Virus genome (UHGV): UHGV-0280588
DNA from: a virus
Direction: 5' to 3' (one strand)
DNA length: 10,694 bases
Shown piece after piece: positions 929 to 8,799 of this stretch; the first letter of the stretch is position 1, and each line of letters opens with the position of its first letter. The position numbers were made by a program, and so were the translations under genes. The notes under the pieces were generated by a model. It did not search any database, was not told the origin of the DNA, and worked only from the letters and a program-made list of their open reading frames with translations.

Positions 929-3376
929 TTAACCGTCATGCATCATGCTGGCACGGGCGCGCACACGTTTATCCCGCTCGTATTTTTCGAGCGCATCCTG
1001 TAACTGGCGGTCAAGCTGTGTCCCCGGCGCAGTACCACCCGTCAGGCTGATGTGATATTCGTTTTTACTCTGGTCCACATAAGAGCGGCCAGCCGGTGCC
1101 GTGACCGGCTGATAAGCCTGATAGCCTGCATAAGAGCTGGTCGCCGGAATATAACCACCGGTGCCATACGTGGCGGCATGAGTTCTGGCGGCGGTCTGGT
1201 CAAGTGTGTCTGACTCTTTGTTGATAACACCGAGTTTTTCCAGTACCCAGTCAATACCGCTGCGCAGTTTGTTGAACGCATTAAGCGGCAGCATCAGCGC
1301 GTCAGCCAGTGCCTGCCCGAACATGACGCCCGTGTCACGGCAACGGTTCAGGGTGTCCTGTGTGGCTTTAACCGGAGCAATCAGGTTTGTAAACCACTGC
1401 CACGCGGCCTGTAACTTTTCGCCCAGCCAGTCAAACACCGGCTTAAGTGGCGTGAACAGCTCCCCCACCGGCGCAAATGCCGCTTTCAGCCCTTCAACCA
1501 CACCGCCAAAGAATGCGCTGACAGGCTCCCAGTATTTACGGATAAGCAACGCCCCGGCGACAATGGCAGCCACCACGGCCACAACCGGCCAGCTAATCGC
1601 ACCGATGGCCGTCATAACGGCACTACCAACCGTCGTGAAGATTGCCCCCATTGCGCCTGCTGCCGCGATAATGGCATTGATGCCGGTGATAACCGGCCAG
1701 GCTACAAGGCCAATGGCACCGATGATGCCAGTCAGCGCCAGTGCACCGCCGGCAATGATGCCGATGGTTGACGCCAGTGATTTGTTTTTCTGTATCCAGC
1801 CGTCGAGTTTTAACACATACTTTGTGGCCGTCTGCGTGAGCTTACGCAGCGCGCCTTCCTGCTGGTCAAACAGGTCAGTCCCCACAGCCTCATAAGCGGA
1901 CTGAAACTCCTTAAAGTCACCGCCGAGGTTATCCTGCATGATTTTAACCAGCTCTTCCGTTTTACTGTCCGAGGCTTTCAGCGTGGCGGTCAGCGTATCC
2001 AGTTTTCCGCTTGCTGCCGCTGCCAGTAAAACGTTCGCTGATTTCAGGGCTTCCTCACCAAAAATGGTTTTAAGGTATTCCCCCTTCTGAGACGTTCCCA
2101 GCTTGTGTTTATCAAAGCTGGCCTGAATCTCTTTCAGAATGGTGAACAACGGACGCATATTTCCCTTTTTGTCCGAGGTTTTAACGCCAAGCTCTTTGAG
2201 TGCATCCCATGCTTTTCCAGTCGGAGCCTGTAATCGGGTGACAACGGCACTACTACCCGTACCCGCCATTGACCCCCTGATGTTATTGTCATGCAGCACA
2301 CCGGTCATGGCTGCTGCCTGCTCAAGACTTACACCTGCCGTTCTTGCGACCGGACCGAGGTAAGTCAGTGCATCACTGAGTCCCTGAAAATCAGCCGCCG
2401 ACTTATTCATCGTTGCCGACAACACGTCGCCCACATGGCTGACATCATCATTTGACAGTTGAAAGGATGCCTTAGTCCCCAGCAACAGTTGCGCGTTTTC
2501 TTCCATCGACCGCTGATTCGCCAGCGCCATATTCAGCGTGACCGGCGTTGCCGCCTGAATGGCATCAACATCCCCACCCGCTTTCGCGATGATTATCTGT
2601 GCACCGGCCGCATCATCCGCCGAGGCGGCGGTATTGTCGCCGAGCTGGCGCGCCTGTTTGCGTAGTGCGGTCATTTCGGCGGAGTCTTTTGCCACTCCGA
2701 GCACGGCCTGCAATTCTGAGTTTTTCTGCGCAAACTCATAACCGGGCATCAGCAACTTAACTCCGGCCATCGTTCCCGCCGCCGCAATCCCCACACCGGC
2801 AGCGCCCACTGAGGCCATATTTCCGGCCAGTTCCTTTCCGGCCTGATAACGCTGTTTTACTGCGTTAAGTTTTGCCTGTTGCGCACTGACACGCGCCAGC
2901 GCGTCACGCTGACGGTTAAGCTGTGCGGTGGTTTCACTGATACGATTTTTCAGTCCCTGCTCATCATGTGCAAGATTGCGGGTATTAATTCCCACAGCGG
3001 CCAGTTCCCGCTGCTGGCGTTTAACGGAATCCGTCAGGCGGTTATATTTCGCCTGTAAGTCCTCCGCCGCACGCTTTGCGGATTCCAGCACTTTCGCCTG
3101 AGCACGGGTCGGACGTTCGGTGTTTTTAAACTGTGTGGCAAGGGCTTCGGCCTCCTGCCGTGCCTTTTCAAGTGCATGACCAGTTACGGCGAGCTGTGCA
3201 CTGGTCTTGCGAAATCCCTCAATACGGGATGCGTGACCGTTCAGCTCGCGCAGTGATTTTTGTGTTTCCCGGATATCCCCCGACAGCGACCTGCTCGCTG
3301 TGCGGATGGATTTAAACGGGCGGGATGCCTGGTCAACAGCCCTGAGCAATACCTGTAATTTTACATTGTTACTCAT
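929..3376 (-). CDS. T: Tail tape measure protein (gpT-like)
   Basis: 815-aa ORF with a coiled-coil-like N-terminal half (many Q/R/A/L/E), a long Gly/Ala/Ile-rich hydrophobic block (IGIIAGGALALTGIIGAIGLVAWPVITGINAIIAAAGAMGAIFTTVGSAV...) and a C-terminal region, typical of tape measure proteins. Lies directly after E/E' as in P2. Confidence 0.92.
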   Translation of the reverse strand: MSNNVKLQVLLRAVDQASRPFKSIRTASRSLSGDIRETQKSLRELNGHASRIEGFRKTSAQLAVTGHALEKARQEAEALATQFKNTERPTRAQAKVLESAKRAAEDLQAKYNRLTDSVKRQQRELAAVGINTRNLAHDEQGLKNRISETTAQLNRQRDALARVSAQQAKLNAVKQRYQAGKELAGNMASVGAAGVGIAAAGTMAGVKLLMPGYEFAQKNSELQAVLGVAKDSAEMTALRKQARQLGDNTAASADDAAGAQIIIAKAGGDVDAIQAATPVTLNMALANQRSMEENAQLLLGTKASFQLSNDDVSHVGDVLSATMNKSAADFQGLSDALTYLGPVARTAGVSLEQAAAMTGVLHDNNIRGSMAGTGSSAVVTRLQAPTGKAWDALKELGVKTSDKKGNMRPLFTILKEIQASFDKHKLGTSQKGEYLKTIFGEEALKSANVLLAAAASGKLDTLTATLKASDSKTEELVKIMQDNLGGDFKEFQSAYEAVGTDLFDQQEGALRKLTQTATKYVLKLDGWIQKNKSLASTIGIIAGGALALTGIIGAIGLVAWPVITGINAIIAAAGAMGAIFTTVGSAVMTAIGAISWPVVAVVAAIVAGALLIRKYWEPVSAFFGGVVEGLKAAFAPVGELFTPLKPVFDWLGEKLQAAWQWFTNLIAPVKATQDTLNRCRDTGVMFGQALADALMLPLNAFNKLRSGIDWVLEKLGVINKESDTLDQTAARTHAATYGTGGYIPATSSYAGYQAYQPVTAPAGRSYVDQSKNEYHISLTGGTAPGTQLDRQLQDALEKYERDKRVRARASMMHDG

Positions 3377-3796
3377 TCGTGTTTCCGCTTCGCCGGAGCG
3401 CCTTTTCGCGCCATGTGATGAGTTCGGTCAGGCTCATGGGATACAGTTCTGATGGCGGCCAGTGAAATATCACTGCCACATCCGCCATCAGGTCATCGAC
3501 CGAGAGATTTTTCGGAAACGTCACTGCACCGAGTTCGGCGACAAAAAACCAACCACCTTACCGGCCAGCGCCACAAGGTCAGGCAGCTCCAGTGCGGCAA
3601 CCTCCTGCTCGGTCAGCATCGGTGCCGTCATGCGCGGCAGCACTTTAATCAGTGCATCGACTTCGGAGTTCGCGACCGCAGCCAGACTGACACCGCGCAG
3701 CGTCCCGGCACTGGGTTTCATCAGCGTGACCTGTTCGATAACCTGCTCACCACGCTTGACCGGATTGTCCAGGGTAATCACATTTTCTTTGTTCAT
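3369..3796 (-). CDS. E': Tail assembly chaperone E+E' made by -1 programmed ribosomal frameshift
   Basis: Slipping -1 at T_TTT_TTG (minus strand, 3548-3542) continues as VAELGAVTFPKNLSVDDLMADVAVIFHWPPSELYPMSLTELITWREKALRRSGNTNE (57 codons) to TAA at 3371-3369, overlapping the tape measure ATG (3376-3374). This is the arrangement reported for P2 E/E' and for lambda G/GT. Confidence 0.78.
3521..3796 (-). CDS. E: Tail assembly chaperone E (gpE-like), frame-0 product
   Basis: 91-aa ORF MNKENVITLDNPVKRGEQVIEQVTLMKPSAGTLRGV...AGKVVGFLSPNSVQ between the tube gene and the tape measure gene; small acidic chaperone in the position of P2 E. Confidence 0.88.
   Translation of the reverse strand: MNKENVITLDNPVKRGEQVIEQVTLMKPSAGTLRGVSLAAVANSEVDALIKVLPRMTAPMLTEQEVAALELPDLVALAGKVVGFLSPNSVQ
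3542..3548 (-). promoter_or_regulatory. Slippery heptamer T_TTT_TTG for the E/E' -1 frameshift
   Basis: Plus strand 3541-3550 is acaaaaaacc, so the minus strand reads GGT TTT TTG in the E frame; the -1 frame is open for 57 codons from here. Confidence 0.75.
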
Positions 3797-3852: not shown

Positions 3853-4371
3853 TCACAGGCCGATATTGCGGCGGTGTTGCTCCAGCCGGTCGACGCCGTT
3901 CACCTTCTCAATCATGTTGATGGTGTCGATTTCGACCAGCTCCTTACCGTCCATCGTCAGCCGGAAATAGGTGCAGACCACGGAGATTTTCGACTCGGTG
4001 TCTTCTCCCTGTTTCCCCTCGCCGGTGTCGATTTCTTTCTGACGTCCACGCATGACCACTTCAACGGCCACCGTTTCGCCGGTATCGTCACGCTGGTAAG
4101 AGCCAGCAAAACGAATCGGCACGGCATCCACACCGGTTGCGGCGTAAAGCTCCCAGATAACCGAATCCGGGAAGCCCCCGAGCGACCACTCCATTGACAG
4201 CGCATCGTCATCAAGGCCGAGGTCTACCGGTGCGCTTCCGTTCATCCCCGCACCGCGATAGTTTTCGAGTTTACGGGTCAGTTTTGGCAGCGTGACGGAC
4301 TTTGCAACGCCCTGATAGCTGTAGCCGTTCAGAAAGACGTTCATTAACTTGAGTTTGCGCGGCATTGCCAT
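3853..4371 (-). CDS. FII: Tail tube protein (gpFII-like)
   Basis: 172-aa ORF MAMPRKLKLMNVFLNGYSYQGVAKSVTLPKLTRKLENYRGAGMNGSAPVDLGLDD... directly downstream of the sheath gene (12-bp gap); matches contractile-tail tube proteins of the P2 FII family. Confidence 0.92.
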   Translation of the reverse strand: MAMPRKLKLMNVFLNGYSYQGVAKSVTLPKLTRKLENYRGAGMNGSAPVDLGLDDDALSMEWSLGGFPDSVIWELYAATGVDAVPIRFAGSYQRDDTGETVAVEVVMRGRQKEIDTGEGKQGEDTESKISVVCTYFRLTMDGKELVEIDTINMIEKVNGVDRLEQHRRNIGL

Positions 4372-4383
4372 CGGTCAGGCTCC

Positions 4384-5574
4384 TTAATTGCTGTTAACCG
4401 AGGTGACCAGATTTGCCAGGTATTTATCGGTAATACGCTGGCGCAGGGTCAGGTTTTCAAGAGGAGGCACCGGAGTATAGTCGTAGTCGATATACAGTTT
4501 TCCGGCCTTAAGGGTTTCCGCATCGTTGGATTCTTCGCTGAACCAGCAGGTCGCATCCACGATATAGCCGTTTGTTTTCAGCTCACGGAATTTGGCATTG
4601 ATGCCGTCAACGATGTCGCGAATCAGCGTTGCGGTGATGGGCTTGTCCACCGCCCACATGTGCGCCTCAGCCATCGTGTCGGCCAGCACCTGCGCGGTGC
4701 GGGTGTAGTTTTCAAAGAGGAACAGCGGGTCATCAGAGCAGGTACGGTTACCCCAGAAGCGGAAACCGTCGCGGCGAATCAGCGTTGTGACGCCTGACTC
4801 GTTAAGCAGGTCAGCATCGGTGCCGGACTCCTGCAAATCCCAGAATACAGAGGCGCTGATGCCGGTAACACCGTTCACCCCGACATTGGACAGCGTTTTA
4901 TGCCAGCCCTGCTCCTGGTCAATTCTGGCTCGCAGACCCAGCGCACGGGCGGTGGCATATGCGGTGGCGGTGGTACTGGTGACCGTATCCCATGCGAGGA
5001 AATCCGGCCAGATGACCATCAGCTCACGCTGGCTGAAATTCTGGCGGTAGGCTTTCACCTCGGAAATGGTCTTACAGCCCCATGCGCTGATATATCCGAA
5101 AGCGCGCAGCTTCTGACAGACTGATGCCAGTGCAACAGCCACCTCTTTGGTATCCAGCCCCGGCACACCAAGAATACGCGGTTTAACACCGGTTACCGAC
5201 TCTGCCGCCAGCAGAGCTTTCAGTCCGGTGTACTGACCATTTTCGTCGGTGGTGCCGATGATATTGGAAACGGTCTGCGCGAGTTTCGTTTCTTCGTCGT
5301 CGCCGGTGCCGTCTTCCACACGCACGACAACGGTGACCGGTTTTGACTGGTCAGCGATGGCCTGCAGCGACGCCGCCAGCGTGCCTTTTTTACCGGCCTT
5401 TGCAATTGCGCTCTGCACATTGGTAATCAGCACCGGTTTATTGAGGGGGAAGATTTCCGCATCCGCATCGCTGGCCGTGCAGACCATGCCGACAATGGCG
5501 GTGGATACGGTGGAAATGACGCGGGTGCCGTCGTTAATCTCCAGCACCTGCACGCCGTGATGATAGTCACTCAT
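4384..5574 (-). CDS. FI: Tail sheath protein (gpFI-like)
   Basis: 396-aa ORF MSDYHHGVQVLEINDGTRVISTVSTAIVGMVCTASDAD...; N-terminus and length match P2-type sheath proteins; followed by tube, E/E', T, U, D in P2 order. Confidence 0.93.
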   Translation of the reverse strand: MSDYHHGVQVLEINDGTRVISTVSTAIVGMVCTASDADAEIFPLNKPVLITNVQSAIAKAGKKGTLAASLQAIADQSKPVTVVVRVEDGTGDDEETKLAQTVSNIIGTTDENGQYTGLKALLAAESVTGVKPRILGVPGLDTKEVAVALASVCQKLRAFGYISAWGCKTISEVKAYRQNFSQRELMVIWPDFLAWDTVTSTTATAYATARALGLRARIDQEQGWHKTLSNVGVNGVTGISASVFWDLQESGTDADLLNESGVTTLIRRDGFRFWGNRTCSDDPLFLFENYTRTAQVLADTMAEAHMWAVDKPITATLIRDIVDGINAKFRELKTNGYIVDATCWFSEESNDAETLKAGKLYIDYDYTPVPPLENLTLRQRITDKYLANLVTSVNSN

Positions 5575-5633: not shown

Positions 5634-6227
5634 CTATTTGTCCCGGTTGGCTAAGGGATGACACAATTTATTCTTTGTCGCTGATGAGGGGAATTTTTTA
5701 TAGAGCGTGGACAGGCCAATATCAAAAATCAGCGCCACACGTTGACGAGATTCCCCCGCAGCCAGCAACCGTCCGACCTGCTCCCACTCACTCGCGGTGA
5801 GTTTCGGACGTCTGCCACCAATACGGCCTTTGGCTCTGGCCGCTTCCAGTCCGGCGCGTGTCCGCTCGACAATGAGTTCTCGTTCCATTTCAGCCAGGGC
5901 ACCCATCACATGAAAGAAAAAACGCCCCATCGGCGTGCTGGTATCAATAGCATCCGTCAGGCTGCGAAAATTAATGCCGCGTTCGCGCAGTTCCTCAACC
6001 AGAATGACCAGATGCCGCATACTACGCCCCAGCCTGTCCAGCTTCCAGACCACCAGAGTGTCACCTGCTGATAATGTTCTGAGCAGTTTTTTCAGTCCCG
6101 GTCGGTCGGACTTCGTGCCGCTGATTTTATCCTCAAAAATCAGCTCACATCCTGCGCACTCCAGCGCGTTACGCTGCAATTCCGTGTTCTGGTCATTTGT
6201 TGACACGCGTACATAGCCAATAAGCAT
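5634..6227 (-). CDS. pin: Serine DNA invertase, Gin/Pin/Hin/Cin family
   Basis: Translation MLIGYVRVSTNDQNTELQRNALECAGCELIFEDKISGTKSDRPGLKKLLRTLSAGDTLVVWKLDRLGRSMRHLVILVEELRERGINFRSLTDAIDTSTPMGRFFFHVMGALAEMERELIVERTRAGLEAARAKGRIGGRRPKL... carries the catalytic YVRVST serine motif and is near-identical in pattern to Gin/Pin as I recall them. Start set at the second ATG (6227-6225), which aligns with the MLIGYVRV start of homologues and has AGGGGGA well spaced upstream; the track's start at 6233 adds two residues. Confidence 0.92.
   Translation of the reverse strand: MLIGYVRVSTNDQNTELQRNALECAGCELIFEDKISGTKSDRPGLKKLLRTLSAGDTLVVWKLDRLGRSMRHLVILVEELRERGINFRSLTDAIDTSTPMGRFFFHVMGALAEMERELIVERTRAGLEAARAKGRIGGRRPKLTASEWEQVGRLLAAGESRQRVALIFDIGLSTLYKKFPSSATKNKLCHPLANRDK
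6120..6144. promoter_or_regulatory. Candidate recombinational enhancer / Fis-binding palindrome inside the 5' part of pin
   Basis: gctgatttt (6120-6128) and aaaatcagc (6136-6144) are exact reverse complements around a 7-bp spacer, with G...C ends and an AT-rich centre like Fis sites. It lies about 85-105 bp into the invertase gene, where Hin/Gin/Cin enhancers are located. Confidence 0.3.
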
Positions 6228-6282
6228 GAGCATCCCCCTGAATAAAAACCGGAGATGATGCCACTTGCCCGTTATCTATGCA

Positions 6283-6308
6283 TTTTCATAAACGTTGGTT
6301 TGGGAGAA
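6283..6308. promoter_or_regulatory. Invertase crossover site (gix/hix-like, pin-proximal)
   Basis: TTTTCATAAACG TT GGTTTGGGAGAA, a 12+2+12 site closely resembling hixL (TTCTTGAAAACC AA GGTTTTTGATAA as recalled). The inner half-site plus 9 further bases (6295-6315, ttggtttgggagaagccagat) recur in inverted orientation at 7731-7751. Confidence 0.72.
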
Positions 6309-6989
6309 GCCAGATTCTCTGGTCGTTTGTTAAACACGAATATTTTTAAAAGCTCTGGAAAATATATCCCAACACCAGGGACAAAAAAGATAAGGGTCAT
6401 TGCCTCTGGTGGCGGTGGCGGCGGCGGTGGGGTTCCTGAAACAACAGAAAATCAGCAGGCAACAGCCGGAGCTGGATTGAGCGGCGCATTTATTGAAGCA
6501 TTTTTCGAGGTTGATAATGATTTCGAAGTCAACGTTATTATCGGTGCTGCAGGTAAAGGTGGGGGAGCCGGAAGAAATTCAGGTAGTGAAGGTGGCACAA
6601 CTTATTTCGGTTCCATGATAACTGCACCTGGTGGTACAGGCGGTGGCGCGGGGGGAGCATCTGCAAACACATCATATATTCAGGGTATTTCATGGGGTGC
6701 CAGTCCGACATCGTCCGGTACTGTACTAAGAGCATTTCGCTGTAGTGCAAAAACACCAGGAGCAATGGTTATCTCTGTTAAAGCTGTAGCAGGTGGTACC
6801 GGGGGGGATACACCATTAGGTTCAGGCGGTATAGGTGGTGCAAGTTCTTCATCATTCAGCGGACGTGGTGGTGGTAAAGCTGAGGGCTTTGGTGCTGGCG
6901 GAGGCGGAGCCTGCGCACCTGCTGGAAGTGAGGCTCAATCGGGAGGTGACGGTGCCCCGGGAATAGTTATTGTTGAGGAGTATGCCTGA
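6297..6989 (+). CDS. Silent alternative tail-fibre C-terminal cassette, glycine-rich (230 aa), expressed only after inversion
   Basis: Plus-strand frame GLGEARFSGRLLNTNIFKSSGKYIPTPGTKKIRVIASGGGGGGGGVPE...GAPGIVIVEEYA shares the crossover-encoded GLGEAR with the H constant part in the same codon phase (junction codon xTT at both sites). Part of track ORF 6255-6989, whose ATG lies outside the segment. Confidence 0.72.
   Translation, partial: GLGEARFSGRLLNTNIFKSSGKYIPTPGTKKIRVIASGGGGGGGGVPETTENQQATAGAGLSGAFIEAFFEVDNDFEVNVIIGAAGKGGGAGRNSGSEGGTTYFGSMITAPGGTGGGAGGASANTSYIQGISWGASPTSSGTVLRAFRCSAKTPGAMVISVKAVAGGTGGDTPLGSGGIGGASSSSFSGRGGGKAEGFGAGGGGACAPAGSEAQSGGDGAPGIVIVEEYA
6408..6431 (+). repeat. 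(GGY)8 trinucleotide run encoding Gly8
   Basis: GGT GGC GGT GGC GGC GGC GGT GGG read directly from the sequence, inside the glycine-rich cassette. Confidence 0.9.
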
Positions 6990-7255
6990 TGAGTAATTTT
7001 GCTCTGATTGAACATGGCGTGGTGAAAAATATTATTATCTGGGATGGAGAGGGGGATTTATTCTCTAATTGCGAAATTATAAATATTGATCATATAGATG
7101 CAGGCGTCGGTTGGTTCTATTCTGACGGAGAGTTTATAGCACCACCGGAACCGGAAATGACTGAATATGATGTTGGTAATATCGACGCGGTGATGGAAGC
7201 AGATACCAGCACCGCGCCGGGGGTTATCTGGCCAGTTCCACCTGAGATGGTTTAA
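6989..7255 (+). CDS. Putative short tail-fibre assembly/chaperone protein for the glycine-rich cassette
   Basis: 88-aa ORF whose ATG overlaps the cassette stop (ATGA). C-terminus ...DTSTAPGVIWPVPPEMV resembles the conserved C-terminal motif of lambda Tfa as I recall it (...RVDTSTAPDIEWPAVPVME). Much shorter than typical Tfa/gpG/U proteins (about 175-195 aa). Confidence 0.5.
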   Translation: MSNFALIEHGVVKNIIIWDGEGDLFSNCEIINIDHIDAGVGWFYSDGEFIAPPEPEMTEYDVGNIDAVMEADTSTAPGVIWPVPPEMV

Positions 7256-7511
7256 TCTCAATCAGAATGGGTTCGCCCTTCTCGTTAACAGATATTTCCA
7301 TTCCTTCAGGGATTTCAGATGCAGTAAAAAACCAGTTATCTTCTGGTAATTCCACAGCCCCGGTCACGTCATGAAGACCGGGGATTACTTCAGTCAAAGT
7401 AACAGGATTAAACAGGCGCACAATAAACTCTCCAGGAAAAAGCACTTGTTGATGGTCTTCCGTCGTACATCTGGCAGCGGACATAAAAACCTGTATTACT
7501 GACCTGGTCAT
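7224..7511 (-). CDS. Uncertain small ORF, possibly a tail-fibre assembly/chaperone protein for the current fibre variant; start not resolved
   Basis: 95-aa frame MTRSVIQVFMSAARCTTEDHQQVLFPGEFIVRLFNPVTLTEVIPGLHDVTGAVELPEDNWFFTASEIPEGMEISVNEKGEPILIEIKPSQVELAR. It overlaps the 3' end of H (stop at 7408-7410) in another frame; the ATG starts at 7511 and 7484 overlap by 104 and 77 nt, and in-frame GTG codons at 7445 and 7421 would give shorter overlaps. Its 3' end overlaps the plus-strand ORF by 32 bp. Confidence 0.35.
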   Translation of the reverse strand: MTRSVIQVFMSAARCTTEDHQQVLFPGEFIVRLFNPVTLTEVIPGLHDVTGAVELPEDNWFFTASEIPEGMEISVNEKGEPILIEIKPSQVELAR

Positions 7512-8799
7512 CCACGATCATTGAAACGTGAACGTTATTAGGTGTGGCCTCGTAATCTGTTCTTATTCTTTCCGCTATGCTGATAAAACGTGAAAGTTTA
7601 GGTAGTGCAATTGGATAAACGACTTTAGCCAGCCCATTATCATTGGAACCACCAGTTCCAAATACTTCTATTGCACCATCTGACCAGCGTATCCATGCAC
7701 CATTGACATTAGCTCCTCGCTGAATGACATATCTGGCTTCTCCCAAACCAAGGTATGCGAGAAGACCAGCAACATCCTTTCCACTCAAATTAGTCAGCGT
7801 ATTGTCCAGCGGTTGTTTGCCTGCCAGTGCATTAAGCACTGTTGTTGAAAAGTTAGGGTCATTCCCCAGCGCCGCCGCCAGTTCATTCAGTGTATCCAGT
7901 GCCGCAGGGGCAGAACCCACCATTGCCGCAATTGCTGATTTCACAAAAGCCGTGGTAGCAATCTGTGTATTGTTGACCGACTGTGCCGCCGTAGGTGCTG
8001 TTGGCGTTCCGGTAAGTGCGGGACTCGACAGCGGCGCTTTCAGCGCCAGCGTATTGTTAATGGTGGTACTGAATTTCGGGTCATTATTAATGGCTGCGGC
8101 AATTTCTTTCAGTGTGTCCAGCGTGGCTGGCGCACCGTTAATCAGAGCAGTAATAGCAGCCTGTACAAACGCAGTGGTCGCAATCCGCGTGGTGTTATTT
8201 CCTGCGGCAGGCGTCGGCGCTTTTGGTTCTCCGGTAAATGTCGGATTATGTTTCTGTGCATACTGGGTATGAGGATCCTGTGCGGCAATGTGGTTTCTCA
8301 TCTGGTCATCCACATAAAGCTTTAATTCCAGGACTTCATCATCCACGTATTTACGGGTCGCCAGTACCACCGACGGGTCGATTTTCAGCGTGATGGCTTC
8401 GGTATTCGTGACAACCAGAATCATGCGGATAGTCTGGGTACGACCGCTGCCTTCCTGCAACTGCGGTTTGTACGTTTCCGGGCAGTTCGCCACCGCAATG
8501 AGTACGCCTTCATCATCATAAAGCCCAATCTCACGGATCCAGAATCCGCCCTCGTTCTCAGGGATGATTTGCTCCGCAATAATCTGGCTCTGGTTGTTCG
8601 GGTCAACACTCAGAAGATTCAGCGGCGCAATGCGTTTCTGGTTAATCAGTTTTGTCTGTGCCGGGTCTGGTGTCGGCAAGACACCATTCGCATCACCAAC
8701 GGCCATTTGCGTCAGATTCAGCTTACTGCCGAGCATCGTCGCGTTAGCCAGCCGTGCTGCGCCCTGATTAGTCAGAATGGCGTAGTATTTCACTGTCAT
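7408..8799 (-). CDS. H: Tail fibre protein (gpH-like), current orientation: constant part 8799-7752, variable C-terminus 7749-7408
   Basis: 463-aa ORF; N-terminal domain MTVKYYAILTNQGAARL...MAVGD...GGFWIREIGLYDDEGVLIAVAN...YVDD is the conserved baseplate-attachment domain of P2 H / Mu S / P1 S type fibres, followed by two shaft repeats, then LGLGEAR at the crossover site and a 107-aa variable tail. ATG overlaps the gpI stop. Confidence 0.9.
   Translation of the reverse strand: MTVKYYAILTNQGAARLANATMLGSKLNLTQMAVGDANGVLPTPDPAQTKLINQKRIAPLNLLSVDPNNQSQIIAEQIIPENEGGFWIREIGLYDDEGVLIAVANCPETYKPQLQEGSGRTQTIRMILVVTNTEAITLKIDPSVVLATRKYVDDEVLELKLYVDDQMRNHIAAQDPHTQYAQKHNPTFTGEPKAPTPAAGNNTTRIATTAFVQAAITALINGAPATLDTLKEIAAAINNDPKFSTTINNTLALKAPLSSPALTGTPTAPTAAQSVNNTQIATTAFVKSAIAAMVGSAPAALDTLNELAAALGNDPNFSTTVLNALAGKQPLDNTLTNLSGKDVAGLLAYLGLGEARYVIQRGANVNGAWIRWSDGAIEVFGTGGSNDNGLAKVVYPIALPKLSRFISIAERIRTDYEATPNNVHVSMIVDDQVSNTGFYVRCQMYDGRPSTSAFSWRVYCAPV
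7738..7763. promoter_or_regulatory. Invertase crossover site (gix/hix-like, fibre-proximal), inside the H coding sequence
   Basis: TTCTCCCAAACC AA GGTATGCGAGAA on the plus strand; inner half-site identical to the reverse complement of the inner half of the 6283-6308 site, and the central dinucleotides (AA here, TT there) are complementary as inverted repeats require. Encodes LGLGEA of the fibre. Confidence 0.72.
7806..8244 (-). repeat. Diverged tandem duplication (2 units of about 219 bp, about 73 aa) in the tail-fibre shaft
   Basis: Protein repeats PTFTGEPKAPTPAAGNNTTRIATTAFVQAAITALINGAPATLDTLKEIAAAINNDPKFSTTINNTLALKA and PALTGTPTAPTAAQSVNNTQIATTAFVKSAIAAMVGSAPAALDTLNELAAALGNDPNFSTTVLNALAGKQ; also visible in the antisense plus-strand ORF 7724-8272. 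Boundaries are approximate. Confidence 0.7.

What the first reader, a model, noticed from the sequence alone, without database searches (positions are those of the whole stretch)
3369..3796. Programmed -1 frameshift producing E+E' tail chaperone, invisible to the ORF track
A T_TTT_TTG slippery heptamer sits 9 codons before the E stop, and the -1 frame is open for 57 codons, ending 5 nt after the tape measure ATG. This is the conserved chaperone-frameshift arrangement found upstream of tape measure genes (P2 E/E', lambda G/GT). A six-frame track shows E as a 91-aa gene followed by apparently non-coding DNA at 3377-3520.
Basis: partly seen in the sequence, partly recalled or inferred. Interest (0 to 1): 0.45.

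Follow-up and report, generated by a model that had tools for sequence, protein, structure and literature searches.

The report
Phage P2 E/E+E' tail frameshift
This is the well-known programmed -1 ribosomal frameshift that lets P2-type phages make two tail-assembly chaperones (E and the longer E+E') from one start codon; the copy here encodes exactly the proteins of phage P2, so it is real but ordinary.

Summary
Gene E (3796..3521, 91 aa) carries an in-register T_TTT_TTG at 3548..3542. From there the -1 frame stays open for 57 codons, to TAA at 3371..3369, overlapping the tape-measure ATG (3376) by 8 nt.

The predicted 142-aa fusion is residue-for-residue P2 gpE+E' (NP_046780.1 / UniProt O64312), and the DNA from 8 nt before the heptamer to the E' stop is identical to P2. 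The P2 RefSeq record annotates this frameshift, and the published work credits Christie et al. 2002.

Comparative tests support it:
- All 16 diverse phage relatives, 79 of 80 bacterial genome loci and 78 of 80 viral contigs keep an in-register slippery heptamer and an open, homologous -1 frame.
- The slippery codons are fixed against codon usage.
- 80 of 96 relatives have no start codon from which E' could be made on its own.

"Invisible to the ORF track" is only partly right. E' shows up as a 51-aa GTG ORF, and NCBI's pipeline annotates it as a separate gene.

There is no 3' stimulatory RNA structure. A conserved Shine-Dalgarno-like AAGGTG just 5' of the site is a possible, unproven stimulator.

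Novelty: already known. Interest is low.

The parts
3521..3796 (-). Gene E: tail assembly chaperone gpE, 91 aa, the product of normal (zero-frame) translation; TGA stop at 3523..3521
   Evidence: ORF. Pfam PF10109 Phage_TAC_7 at E=1.5e-12. PHROG 103 'tail protein' at 6e-45. The exact sequence equals UniProt TAP_BPP2 and is seen on at least 1000 contigs.
3542..3548 (-). Slippery heptamer T_TTT_TTG, in register with E codons 83-85 (GGT TTT TTG); site of the -1 shift
   Evidence: Invariant in 59 distinct close relatives. Present in 76 of 80 genome loci as TTTTTTG, with 3 more as TTTTTTA, and in 13 of 16 diverse phages; the other three have TTTTTTC, AAATTTT and GGGAAAG. The codons GGT, TTT and TTG have the lowest synonymous entropy in the gene; TTG makes up 0.06 of background Leu codons.
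3369..3542 (-). E' : the -1 frame extension, 57 codons (GTC at 3542..3540 through GAG) plus TAA at 3371..3369; base 3542 is read twice. Together with E codons 1-85 it gives the 142-aa gpE+E'
   Evidence: Translation. Pfam PF06528 Phage_P2_GpE at 2e-22. PHROG 1756 at 1.4e-28. The fusion is identical to NP_046780.1 / O64312. Third-position bias of variation in the E' frame.
3552..3559 (-). Shine-Dalgarno-like AAGGTGGT, ending 3 nt 5' of the heptamer; a candidate (unproven) 5' stimulator
   Evidence: Its anti-SD duplex energy of -10.2 kcal/mol puts it in the top 0.8% of 10-mers in the locus. The Lys codon is AAG in 66 of 67 relatives against a background share of 0.26. With the amino acids held fixed, the excess over a synonymous null is only modest.
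929..3376 (-). Gene T, tail tape measure protein (815 aa); its ATG at 3376 overlaps the end of E' by 8 nt (ATGAGTAA)
   Evidence: Pfam PF10145 PhageMin_Tail at 5.8e-45. P2 has the same arrangement.
3853..4371 (-). Gene FII, tail tube protein, immediately upstream of E (context that defines the chaperone position)
   Evidence: Pfam PF04985 Phage_tube at 2.3e-60. Gene order matches P2.
4384..5574 (-). Gene FI, tail sheath protein, first gene of the FI-FII-E-E'-T-U-D operon
   Evidence: Pfam PF04984 and PF17482. P2 annotation.

Best explanation
This is the E/E+E' recoding site of a P2-type (Peduovirus) prophage or phage.

Most ribosomes translate E to its TGA stop and release the 91-aa gpE. A minority slip back one nucleotide while tRNA-Phe and tRNA-Leu occupy UUU and UUG of U_UUU_UUG. 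They re-pair on UUU_UUU, read on in the -1 frame for 57 codons, and release the 142-aa gpE+E', which shares its first 85 residues with gpE. The two proteins are therefore made at a fixed ratio from one start codon.

By analogy with lambda gpG/gpGT, the shared E part would coat the tape measure protein T, encoded immediately downstream. The E' part would recruit the tube protein FII, so that tube and sheath polymerise to the length set by T.

Shown here: the sequence anatomy, identity with P2, and conservation of the signal and of the -1 frame.

Taken from the literature: the fused product is actually made in P2.

Inferred: the division of labour between the E and E' parts.
For: Anatomy.

Identity with P2:
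- 417 of 428 nt match. All 11 differences are synonymous third positions upstream of the heptamer.
- The fusion protein equals NP_046780.1 / UniProt O64312 'Tail assembly protein E''.
- The P2 RefSeq record annotates a joined E+E' CDS with the notes 'site of -1 translational frameshift' and 'essential tail protein'. PSP3 and 186 are annotated likewise.

Literature:
- PMC3091744 states that in P2 the -1 shift occurs at TTTTTTG and gives the 91-aa E and the 142-aa E+E', citing Christie 2002 and Xu 2004.
- The lambda G/GT function is summarised in PMC5009743.

Family hits: PF10109 plus PF06528.

Conservation:
- A tblastn search finds both parts, as two pieces, in 401 of 418 phage records, down to about 37% identity.
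- 16 of 16 diverse phages have an in-register heptamer and an open -1 frame.
- 79 of 80 Enterobacterales genome loci do too, and 78 of 80 viral contigs.
- The slippery codons are kept against codon usage, with a joint synonymous probability of 0.0005-0.05 per lineage, and they have the lowest synonymous entropy in E.
- 80 of 96 relatives have no ATG, GTG or TTG in the -1 frame between the shift site and the conserved E' motif.
- Two relatives use non-homopolymeric heptamers (AAATTTT, GGGAAAG). That fits tRNA slippage, not polymerase stuttering.
Against: - Nothing here measures frameshifting in this particular element. Efficiency and the residue at the junction (Leu or Phe) are not determined.
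- I could not retrieve the primary experimental paper (Christie et al. 2002), so the experimental basis is cited second-hand.
- There is no significant RNA structure within 50 nt 3' of the site (z = -0.3). What raises slippage above background is therefore not established.
- The chaperone roles of the E and E' parts are carried over from lambda. Sequence similarity to lambda gpG/gpT is not detectable.
Confidence: 0.95

Rival explanations
1. E' is a separate small gene, translated from its own start. One candidate is the GTG at 3524, which overlaps the E stop (GTGA) as PGAP models it (51 aa). The other is the conserved Met inside the DDLMAD motif (about 39 aa). On this reading the heptamer is irrelevant.
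For: - PGAP annotates 3369..3524 as a stand-alone 'GpE family phage tail protein'. That 51-aa protein is recorded on more than 1000 contigs.
- Several phage records annotate a 38-43 aa stand-alone E' starting at the conserved Met.
- GTGA is a typical stop-start overlap for translational coupling.
Against: - Only 3 of 96 relatives have the GTG. 80 of 96 have no start codon at all between the shift site and the conserved motif, yet all keep that 9-26 codon stretch free of stops.
- No SD-like sequence precedes any of the candidate starts.
- This model does not predict the in-register heptamer, which is fixed against codon usage.
- The literature reports the fused product in P2, and the P2 record notes it.
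Confidence: 0.03
2. The fusion is produced by transcriptional slippage. RNA polymerase adds one extra U in the T6 run, and normal translation of that mRNA then gives E+E' with a Phe-Phe-Val junction.
For: - The site is a homopolymer run of six T.
- Inserting one U would put E' in frame.
- Sequence data alone cannot separate this from ribosomal slippage.
- A 142-aa 'GFFV' in-frame version exists in one E. coli genome record (QTN08932.1), so the run can gain a T at the DNA or sequencing level.
Against: - The review describes efficient bacterial transcriptional slippage on runs of about 9 A or T. This run has six.
- Related phages use AAATTTT and GGGAAAG at the same place. These are classical tRNA-slippage heptamers and poor polymerase-slippage sites.
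- The register (X_XXY_YYZ relative to the E frame) and the final G or A are conserved. That matters for tRNA re-pairing, not for polymerase stuttering.
Confidence: 0.03
3. A chance open frame: the -1 frame is open by accident and no E' product matters.
For: A 62-codon stop-free stretch in a 55-58% GC genome is not very rare, and the heptamer count in the window is at expectation.
Against: - Pfam E=2e-22 for the -1 frame product.
- Conservation of E' down to about 37% identity in 401 phage records.
- Third-position bias of substitutions in the E' frame.
- The P2 record marks E+E' as essential.
Confidence: 0.005

Closest known systems
Bacteriophage P2 gpE / gpE+E' (genes E and E' of the FI-FII-E-E'-T-U-D operon; UniProt TAP_BPP2 and TAPFS_BPP2; Christie et al. 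2002, J Bacteriol 184:6522)
   Same: Everything that can be compared matches:
- identical 91-aa and 142-aa proteins;
- identical heptamer and register;
- identical nucleotide sequence from 8 nt before the heptamer to the E' stop;
- the same 8-nt overlap with T;
- the same flanking genes.
   Different: There are 11 synonymous substitutions in the first 246 nt of E. The surrounding element differs from P2 in the tail-fibre region, where it has an invertase and an invertible segment in place of Z/fun.
Phage 186 orf51/orf52 and PSP3 gp23/gp23.5 (Eganvirus)
   Same: Same heptamer, the same six codons between the heptamer and the E stop, a 57-codon E', and an 8-nt overlap with the tape measure gene. 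The fusion is about 72% identical.
   Different: A longer N-terminus of E, and amino-acid divergence.
Phage lambda gpG / gpGT, and the general tail-assembly-chaperone frameshift of long-tailed phages (Levin 1993; Xu, Hendrix and Duda 2004, 2013, 2014)
   Same: Two overlapping ORFs lie between the major tail (tube) gene and the tape measure gene. They are joined by a low-level -1 shift near the end of the first ORF, which gives a fixed ratio of short to long product.
   Different: - No detectable sequence similarity: Pfam gives only Phage_TAC_7 and Phage_P2_GpE.
- The lambda extension (T) is longer than E'.
- P2 has a contractile tail.
- The binding partners of E and E' are inferred, not shown here.
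E. coli dnaX -1 frameshift (A_AAA_AAG with a 5' Shine-Dalgarno-like stimulator and a 3' stem-loop)
   Same: A bacterial tandem-slippage heptamer ending in G, with a Shine-Dalgarno-like sequence upstream.
   Different: - No 3' stem-loop at the usual distance.
- The SD-like element lies much closer: its AGGTG core ends 5 nt before the heptamer (the full AAGGTGGT ends 3 nt before), against about 10 nt in dnaX. The dnaX spacing is from my own knowledge of Larsen et al. 1994.
- Its role is untested.

Membership tests
P2 gpE / gpE+E' tail assembly proteins (Pfam PF10109 + PF06528) | The upstream ORF is a gpE homologue | tested here: met
   PF10109 at E=1.5e-12. The exact sequence equals UniProt TAP_BPP2.
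P2 gpE / gpE+E' tail assembly proteins (Pfam PF10109 + PF06528) | The -1 frame overlapping the 3' end of E encodes a GpE (E') homologue | tested here: met
   PF06528 at E=2e-22. The fusion is identical to NP_046780.1 / O64312.
P2 gpE / gpE+E' tail assembly proteins (Pfam PF10109 + PF06528) | An in-register X_XXY_YYZ slippery heptamer (TTTTTTG in P2) a few codons before the E stop | tested here: met
   T_TTT_TTG at 3548..3542, in the GG[T TTT TTG] register, 6 codons before the stop. It sits at the same position as the frameshift site annotated in P2.
P2 gpE / gpE+E' tail assembly proteins (Pfam PF10109 + PF06528) | Position between the tail tube gene (FII) and the tape measure gene (T), with the end of E' overlapping the start of T | tested here: met
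   FII at 3853..4371, E/E' at 3369..3796, T at 929..3376, with an 8-nt overlap.
P2 gpE / gpE+E' tail assembly proteins (Pfam PF10109 + PF06528) | E' has no translation start of its own that is conserved | tested here: met
   80 of 96 relatives have no ATG, GTG or TTG between the shift site and the conserved motif. The GTG at 3524 is present in only 3 of 96.
P2 gpE / gpE+E' tail assembly proteins (Pfam PF10109 + PF06528) | A fused E+E' polypeptide is actually made and is needed for tail assembly | not testable with these tools
   Reported for P2 (Christie 2002, as cited in PMC3091744; 'essential tail protein' in the RefSeq note). The signal and product here are identical in sequence, so the result should carry over, but it was not measured here.
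Lambda G/GT-type tail assembly chaperone frameshift (functional class of Xu, Hendrix and Duda 2004) | Two overlapping ORFs between the major tail gene and the tape measure gene, linked by a -1 shift near the end of the first | tested here: met
   The class is described.
Lambda G/GT-type tail assembly chaperone frameshift (functional class of Xu, Hendrix and Duda 2004) | Sequence homology to lambda gpG/gpT | tested here: not met
   At E<=0.01, the Pfam scan returns only Phage_TAC_7 and Phage_P2_GpE. No solved relative was found. The element therefore works like lambda G/GT without being a sequence-level member.
Lambda G/GT-type tail assembly chaperone frameshift (functional class of Xu, Hendrix and Duda 2004) | The short product coats the tape measure, the long product recruits the tube protein, and neither is in the virion | not testable with these tools
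   Known for lambda. Inferred for P2-type phages.
dnaX / IS-type -1 frameshift with stimulators | A 3' stem-loop or pseudoknot about 5-9 nt after the heptamer | tested here: not met
   - The 50 nt after the site fold no better than shuffles in the window (z=-0.31) and in 8 relatives (z from +0.4 to -1.9).
- PMC3091744 reports the same for P2 and the Burkholderia relatives.
- The strong hairpin at 3449..3491 starts 50 nt downstream.
dnaX / IS-type -1 frameshift with stimulators | A 5' Shine-Dalgarno-like stimulator | tested here: inconclusive
   - AAGGTGGT at 3559..3552 is in the top 0.8% for anti-SD pairing. 14 of 17 lineages have a comparable element within 24 nt.
- The Lys codon is AAG in 66 of 67 relatives against a background of 0.26.
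- With the amino acids fixed, the excess is weak per lineage (P 0.02-0.4; Fisher 0.004, and the lineages are not independent).
- The spacing is shorter than in dnaX.
Transcriptional slippage sites | A long homopolymer run (about 9 A or T in the bacterial cases) | tested here: not met
   The run is T6. Relatives use AAATTTT or GGGAAAG. The run-length criterion comes from PMC5009743.

The most novel reading that the evidence does not exclude
In P2-type phages the frameshift is boosted by a conserved Shine-Dalgarno-like sequence that pairs with the 3' end of 16S rRNA just 5' of the heptamer, not by a downstream RNA structure. The sequence is AAGGTG(G/A)T(C/T), here at 3559..3552. It would act like the dnaX and IS 5' stimulators but at an unusually short spacing.

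Three observations leave this open:
- The element ranks in the top 1% for anti-SD affinity in 14 of 17 diverged lineages.
- The rare Lys codon AAG is nearly fixed.
- No 3' structure is present.

I found no mention of such an element for P2 in the searchable literature, but I could not read the two key papers. A secondary possibility is that the 10-bp hairpin at 3449..3491, inside the most conserved E' codons, modulates translation of E' or T.
Probability: 0.25. Interest if true: 0.3.

Novelty: already known. Interest (0 to 1): 0.08.

Why it matters
For biology, very little is new. This is one more copy of a recoding event that was described experimentally in 2002 and is present in hundreds of phage records and thousands of enterobacterial prophages.

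Its practical value is for annotation. The standard pipeline splits the gene into a 91-aa 'phage tail assembly protein' and a stand-alone 51-aa 'GpE family phage tail protein' with a GTG start that is not conserved. The true 142-aa product is therefore missing from almost all bacterial genome records.

The comparative data gathered here give a clean rule for joining them: an in-register XXXYYYZ heptamer 5-22 codons before the stop of a PF10109 gene, followed by PF06528 in the -1 frame.

The only point that might interest a recoding specialist is the synonymous constraint on an SD-like motif 5' of the site.

Tried and rejected
1. Primary paper. Christie et al. 2002 could not be retrieved by DOI or PMC id. 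I used secondary citations and the RefSeq notes. My recollection that the efficiency was about 10% is unverified and is not used as evidence.

2. Structure prediction. I did not pursue it.

3. Solved structures and NCBIfam. No relative in the PDB and no NCBIfam hit.

4. Genome scan. The 15-sequence alignment was too divergent for the locus scan. A 6-sequence alignment worked.

5. A 3' stimulatory structure. The 136-nt fold looked mildly structured (z=-2.4). This is due to a hairpin 50 nt downstream. The first 50 nt are unstructured in the window and in 8 relatives, so I rejected it as a classical stimulator.

6. The hairpin at 3449..3491. It folds at -25 kcal/mol with z=-3.35. It coincides with the most conserved peptide (LMAD...WPPSE). 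In 64 distinct relatives it averages 9.4 of 10 pairs, but with 10-17% mismatches at two wobble positions and only one compensatory change. I cannot separate it from protein constraint.

7. The SD-like element. It is strong in raw affinity, but a synonymous-codon null shows that the amino-acid sequence explains most of it. It is kept only as a hypothesis.

8. My first ORF-picking script chose the wrong frame in three high-GC phages. I corrected this by fixing the register to the match start.
Full report
**What is in the sequence**

The finding lies on the minus strand. Gene E runs from the ATG at 3796 to the TGA at 3523..3521 and encodes 91 aa.

Its codons 83-85 are GGT TTT TTG, so the heptamer T_TTT_TTG (3548..3542) is in the X_XXY_YYZ register needed for tandem -1 slippage. 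Six sense codons follow before the stop.

Re-reading G3542 opens the -1 frame: GTC GCC GAA ... for 57 codons (VAELGAVTFPKNLSVDDLMADVAVIFHWPPSELYPMSLTELITWREKALRRSGNTNE), ending at TAA 3371..3369. The 815-aa tape measure gene starts at ATG 3376, so E' and T overlap by 8 nt (ATGAGTAA).

One statement needs qualifying: 3377-3520 is not empty on an ORF track. A 51-aa GTG ORF (3369..3524) is listed at a 40-aa threshold.

**Is it more than chance?**

The heptamer by itself is not. It occurs twice in the window against 1.99 expected.

The -1 frame product, however, matches Pfam PF06528 (Phage_P2_GpE) at E=2e-22, and E matches PF10109 (Phage_TAC_7) at 1.5e-12. PHROGs gives 'tail protein' families for both. 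The neighbours are the tail sheath (FI), the tail tube (FII), the tape measure (T) and gpU.

**Identity with P2**

Aligned with the E+E' CDS of the P2 reference genome, 417 of 428 nt are identical. All 11 differences are synonymous third positions in E, upstream of the heptamer.

The predicted 142-aa fusion (...VVGFLVAELG...) is exactly NP_046780.1 / UniProt O64312, 'Tail assembly protein E''. The 91-aa product is exactly UniProt TAP_BPP2.

The P2 record annotates a joined E+E' CDS, marks the 'site of -1 translational frameshift' at the corresponding position, and calls both products essential tail proteins. PSP3 and 186 carry equivalent annotations.

Lynch et al. 2010 (PMC3091744) state that in P2 the -1 shift at TTTTTTG yields the 91-aa E and the 142-aa E+E' from one start. 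They cite Christie et al. 2002 and Xu et al. 2004, and report that no downstream hairpin exists in P2 or in the Burkholderia relatives. I could not retrieve the primary paper.

- A tblastn search of the fusion against 50,697 phage records finds 418 records. In 401 of them both parts are present, and the listed rows show them as two pieces in different frames, down to about 37% identity.
- I fetched 16 diverse relatives: 186, PSP3, and phages of Yersinia, Klebsiella, Burkholderia, Ralstonia, Pseudomonas, Salmonella, Aeromonas, Vibrio, Acidovorax and Mannheimia. All 16 have an in-register slippery heptamer 5-22 codons before the E stop and an open -1 frame of 51-71 codons carrying the conserved motif (D-L-M-A-D-I-A-x-I-F-H-W ... 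W-R-E). Thirteen use TTTTTTG; the others use TTTTTTC, AAATTTT and GGGAAAG.
- Of 80 IMG/VR contigs, 78 keep the 91 + 57 codon layout. The two exceptions have single-base deletions or a scaffold gap.
- Of 80 loci from different bacterial species, 79 keep an in-register heptamer (76 TTTTTTG, 3 TTTTTTA) and an E' of 57-64 codons. The exception is a natural in-frame fusion.

The slippery codons are held against codon usage:
- Given the amino acids and local usage, the joint probability of the observed codons is 0.0005-0.05 per lineage.
- In 78 distinct enterobacterial sequences, GGT, TTT and TTG have the three lowest synonymous entropies of the 46 conserved codons examined. TTG is only 6% of background Leu codons.

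Among close relatives, substitutions in the E'-only stretch fall on third positions of the E' frame (12 of 18, P=0.004). Those in E fall on third positions of the E frame (40 of 42).

**Rivals**

1. *A separate E' gene.* PGAP models 3369..3524 as a stand-alone 'GpE family phage tail protein' starting at a GTG that overlaps the E stop. This 51-aa protein is on more than 1000 contigs, whereas the 142-aa fusion is recorded essentially only for P2. Against it:
   - The GTG is present in just 3 of 96 relatives.
   - 80 of 96 have no ATG, GTG or TTG anywhere between the shift site and the conserved motif, yet the frame stays open there in all.
   - A start at the conserved Met inside the motif cannot be formally excluded from sequence. 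It would not explain the heptamer or the open linker.
2. *Transcriptional slippage on the T6 run.* This would give the same fusion with a Phe-Phe-Val junction. The run is short compared with known bacterial cases, and relatives use non-homopolymeric heptamers. It remains a minor possibility that only RNA or peptide data can bound.
3. *A chance ORF.* Excluded.

**How it most likely works**

Shown: the signal, the two frames and their conservation.

From the literature: the fused product exists in P2 and both products are essential.

Inferred by analogy with lambda gpG/gpGT: the shared E part binds the tape measure protein, and the E' part recruits the tube protein. Frameshifting hard-wires an unequal ratio of the two.

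**What stimulates the shift**

The 50 nt after the site fold no better than shuffles in the window (z=-0.31) or in eight relatives.

A strong hairpin (10-bp stem, 3491..3482 paired with 3458..3449, -25 kcal/mol, z=-3.35) starts 50 nt downstream, too far to act as a classical stimulator. It coincides with the most conserved E' codons. Across 64 distinct relatives it is mostly kept, but with mismatches at wobble sites and only one compensatory change, so it cannot be told apart from protein constraint.

Upstream, AAGGTGGT (3559..3552) is complementary to the 3' end of 16S rRNA:
- It ranks in the top 0.8% of 10-mers in the locus. 14 of 17 lineages have a comparable element within 24 nt of the heptamer.
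- The Lys codon in it is AAG in 66 of 67 enterobacterial sequences, although AAG is 26% of background Lys codons and the other conserved Lys codons of E prefer AAA.
- With the amino-acid sequence held fixed, a synonymous-codon null gives only P=0.02-0.4 per lineage (Fisher 0.004, lineages not independent).
- The spacing is shorter than in dnaX.

I treat this as a hypothesis, not a finding. I found no mention of it in the searchable literature, but the two key papers were not readable.

**Verdict**

This is the P2 E/E+E' programmed -1 frameshift, with proteins identical to those of P2. It is already known. Its practical relevance is that genome pipelines split the gene instead of joining it. 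Interest is low.

Noticed in passing
window 5634-7763 (invertase 5634..6233 minus strand; inverted repeat 6283-6315 / 7731-7763): Where P2 carries Z/fun, this element has a 199-aa serine recombinase (PF00239 + PF02796). Next to it is a roughly 1.45-kb segment bounded by a 33-nt inverted repeat (85% complementary). The repeat contains TTCTCCCAAACCAA(G/C)G..., which I recognise from memory as a Din-family (hix/gix/cix-like) crossover site.

One arm lies inside the tail-fibre gene H (7408..8799, minus strand). The plus-strand ORFs 6255..6989 (Gly_rich_2) and 6989..7255 would supply an alternative fibre C-terminus after inversion. This looks like a Mu G / P1 C-type host-range switch.
   Followed up: partly
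window 3449-3491 (minus strand): A perfect 10-bp stem (CTGATGGCGG / CCGCCATCAG) with an inner 6-bp stem, at -25 kcal/mol and z=-3.35. It lies 50 nt after the slippery site, inside the most conserved E' codons. It is largely kept in 64 distinct relatives, but this cannot be separated from protein constraint. Function, if any, is unknown.
   Followed up: partly
window 3369-3548 versus 3549-3796: All 11 differences from P2 lie in the first 246 nt of E, and none in the remaining 182 nt. In 59 close relatives, third positions of E' vary about half as often as those of E (0.25 against 0.49) or T (0.59). This could be extra nucleotide-level constraint or a recombination boundary.
   Followed up: partly
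L100 (Candidatus Symbiopectobacterium, NZ_PEHF01000066.1) 701-1117: A short deletion just upstream of the T run puts E and E' in one continuous 139-aa frame, with no separate E product and no in-register heptamer. It is either a decaying prophage in a symbiont or a natural experiment in making only the long form.
   Followed up: partly
protein QTN08932.1 (E. coli): A single genome record holds a 142-aa in-frame 'GFFV' version of E+E'. That is what a T7 run in place of T6 would give. It is either a sequencing or assembly error or a real one-base insertion.
   Followed up: no
L103, L113, L173: Assemblies labelled Chryseobacterium sp. 18061, Vagococcus sp. WN89Y and a Sporobacter termitidis MAG carry E+E' loci 73-92% identical to this enterobacterial one. 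The likeliest explanation is contamination or mislabelling of those assemblies.
   Followed up: no
L003 1501-1925 and L007 (IMG/VR contigs): L003 has two single-base deletions inside E, truncating it to 55 aa. L007 is a second, partial copy of E on the same contig as L004, broken at an N. Both are probably assembly artefacts.
   Followed up: yes
whole window: No complete E. coli genome among 5,426 holds the whole window at 99% or better. The best match covers 90% at 95.9%, and the best phage match covers 87% at 97.4%. The mismatch is concentrated in the tail-fibre and invertase region, so the element is a mosaic P2-like prophage, possibly from another enterobacterial host.
   Followed up: partly
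window 3521-3524 (minus strand): The E stop and the GTG that PGAP uses for a stand-alone E' overlap as GTGA. This looks like translational coupling, but the GTG is present in only 3 of 96 relatives. The widespread 51-aa 'GpE family phage tail protein' annotation is therefore probably a pipeline artefact.
   Followed up: yes
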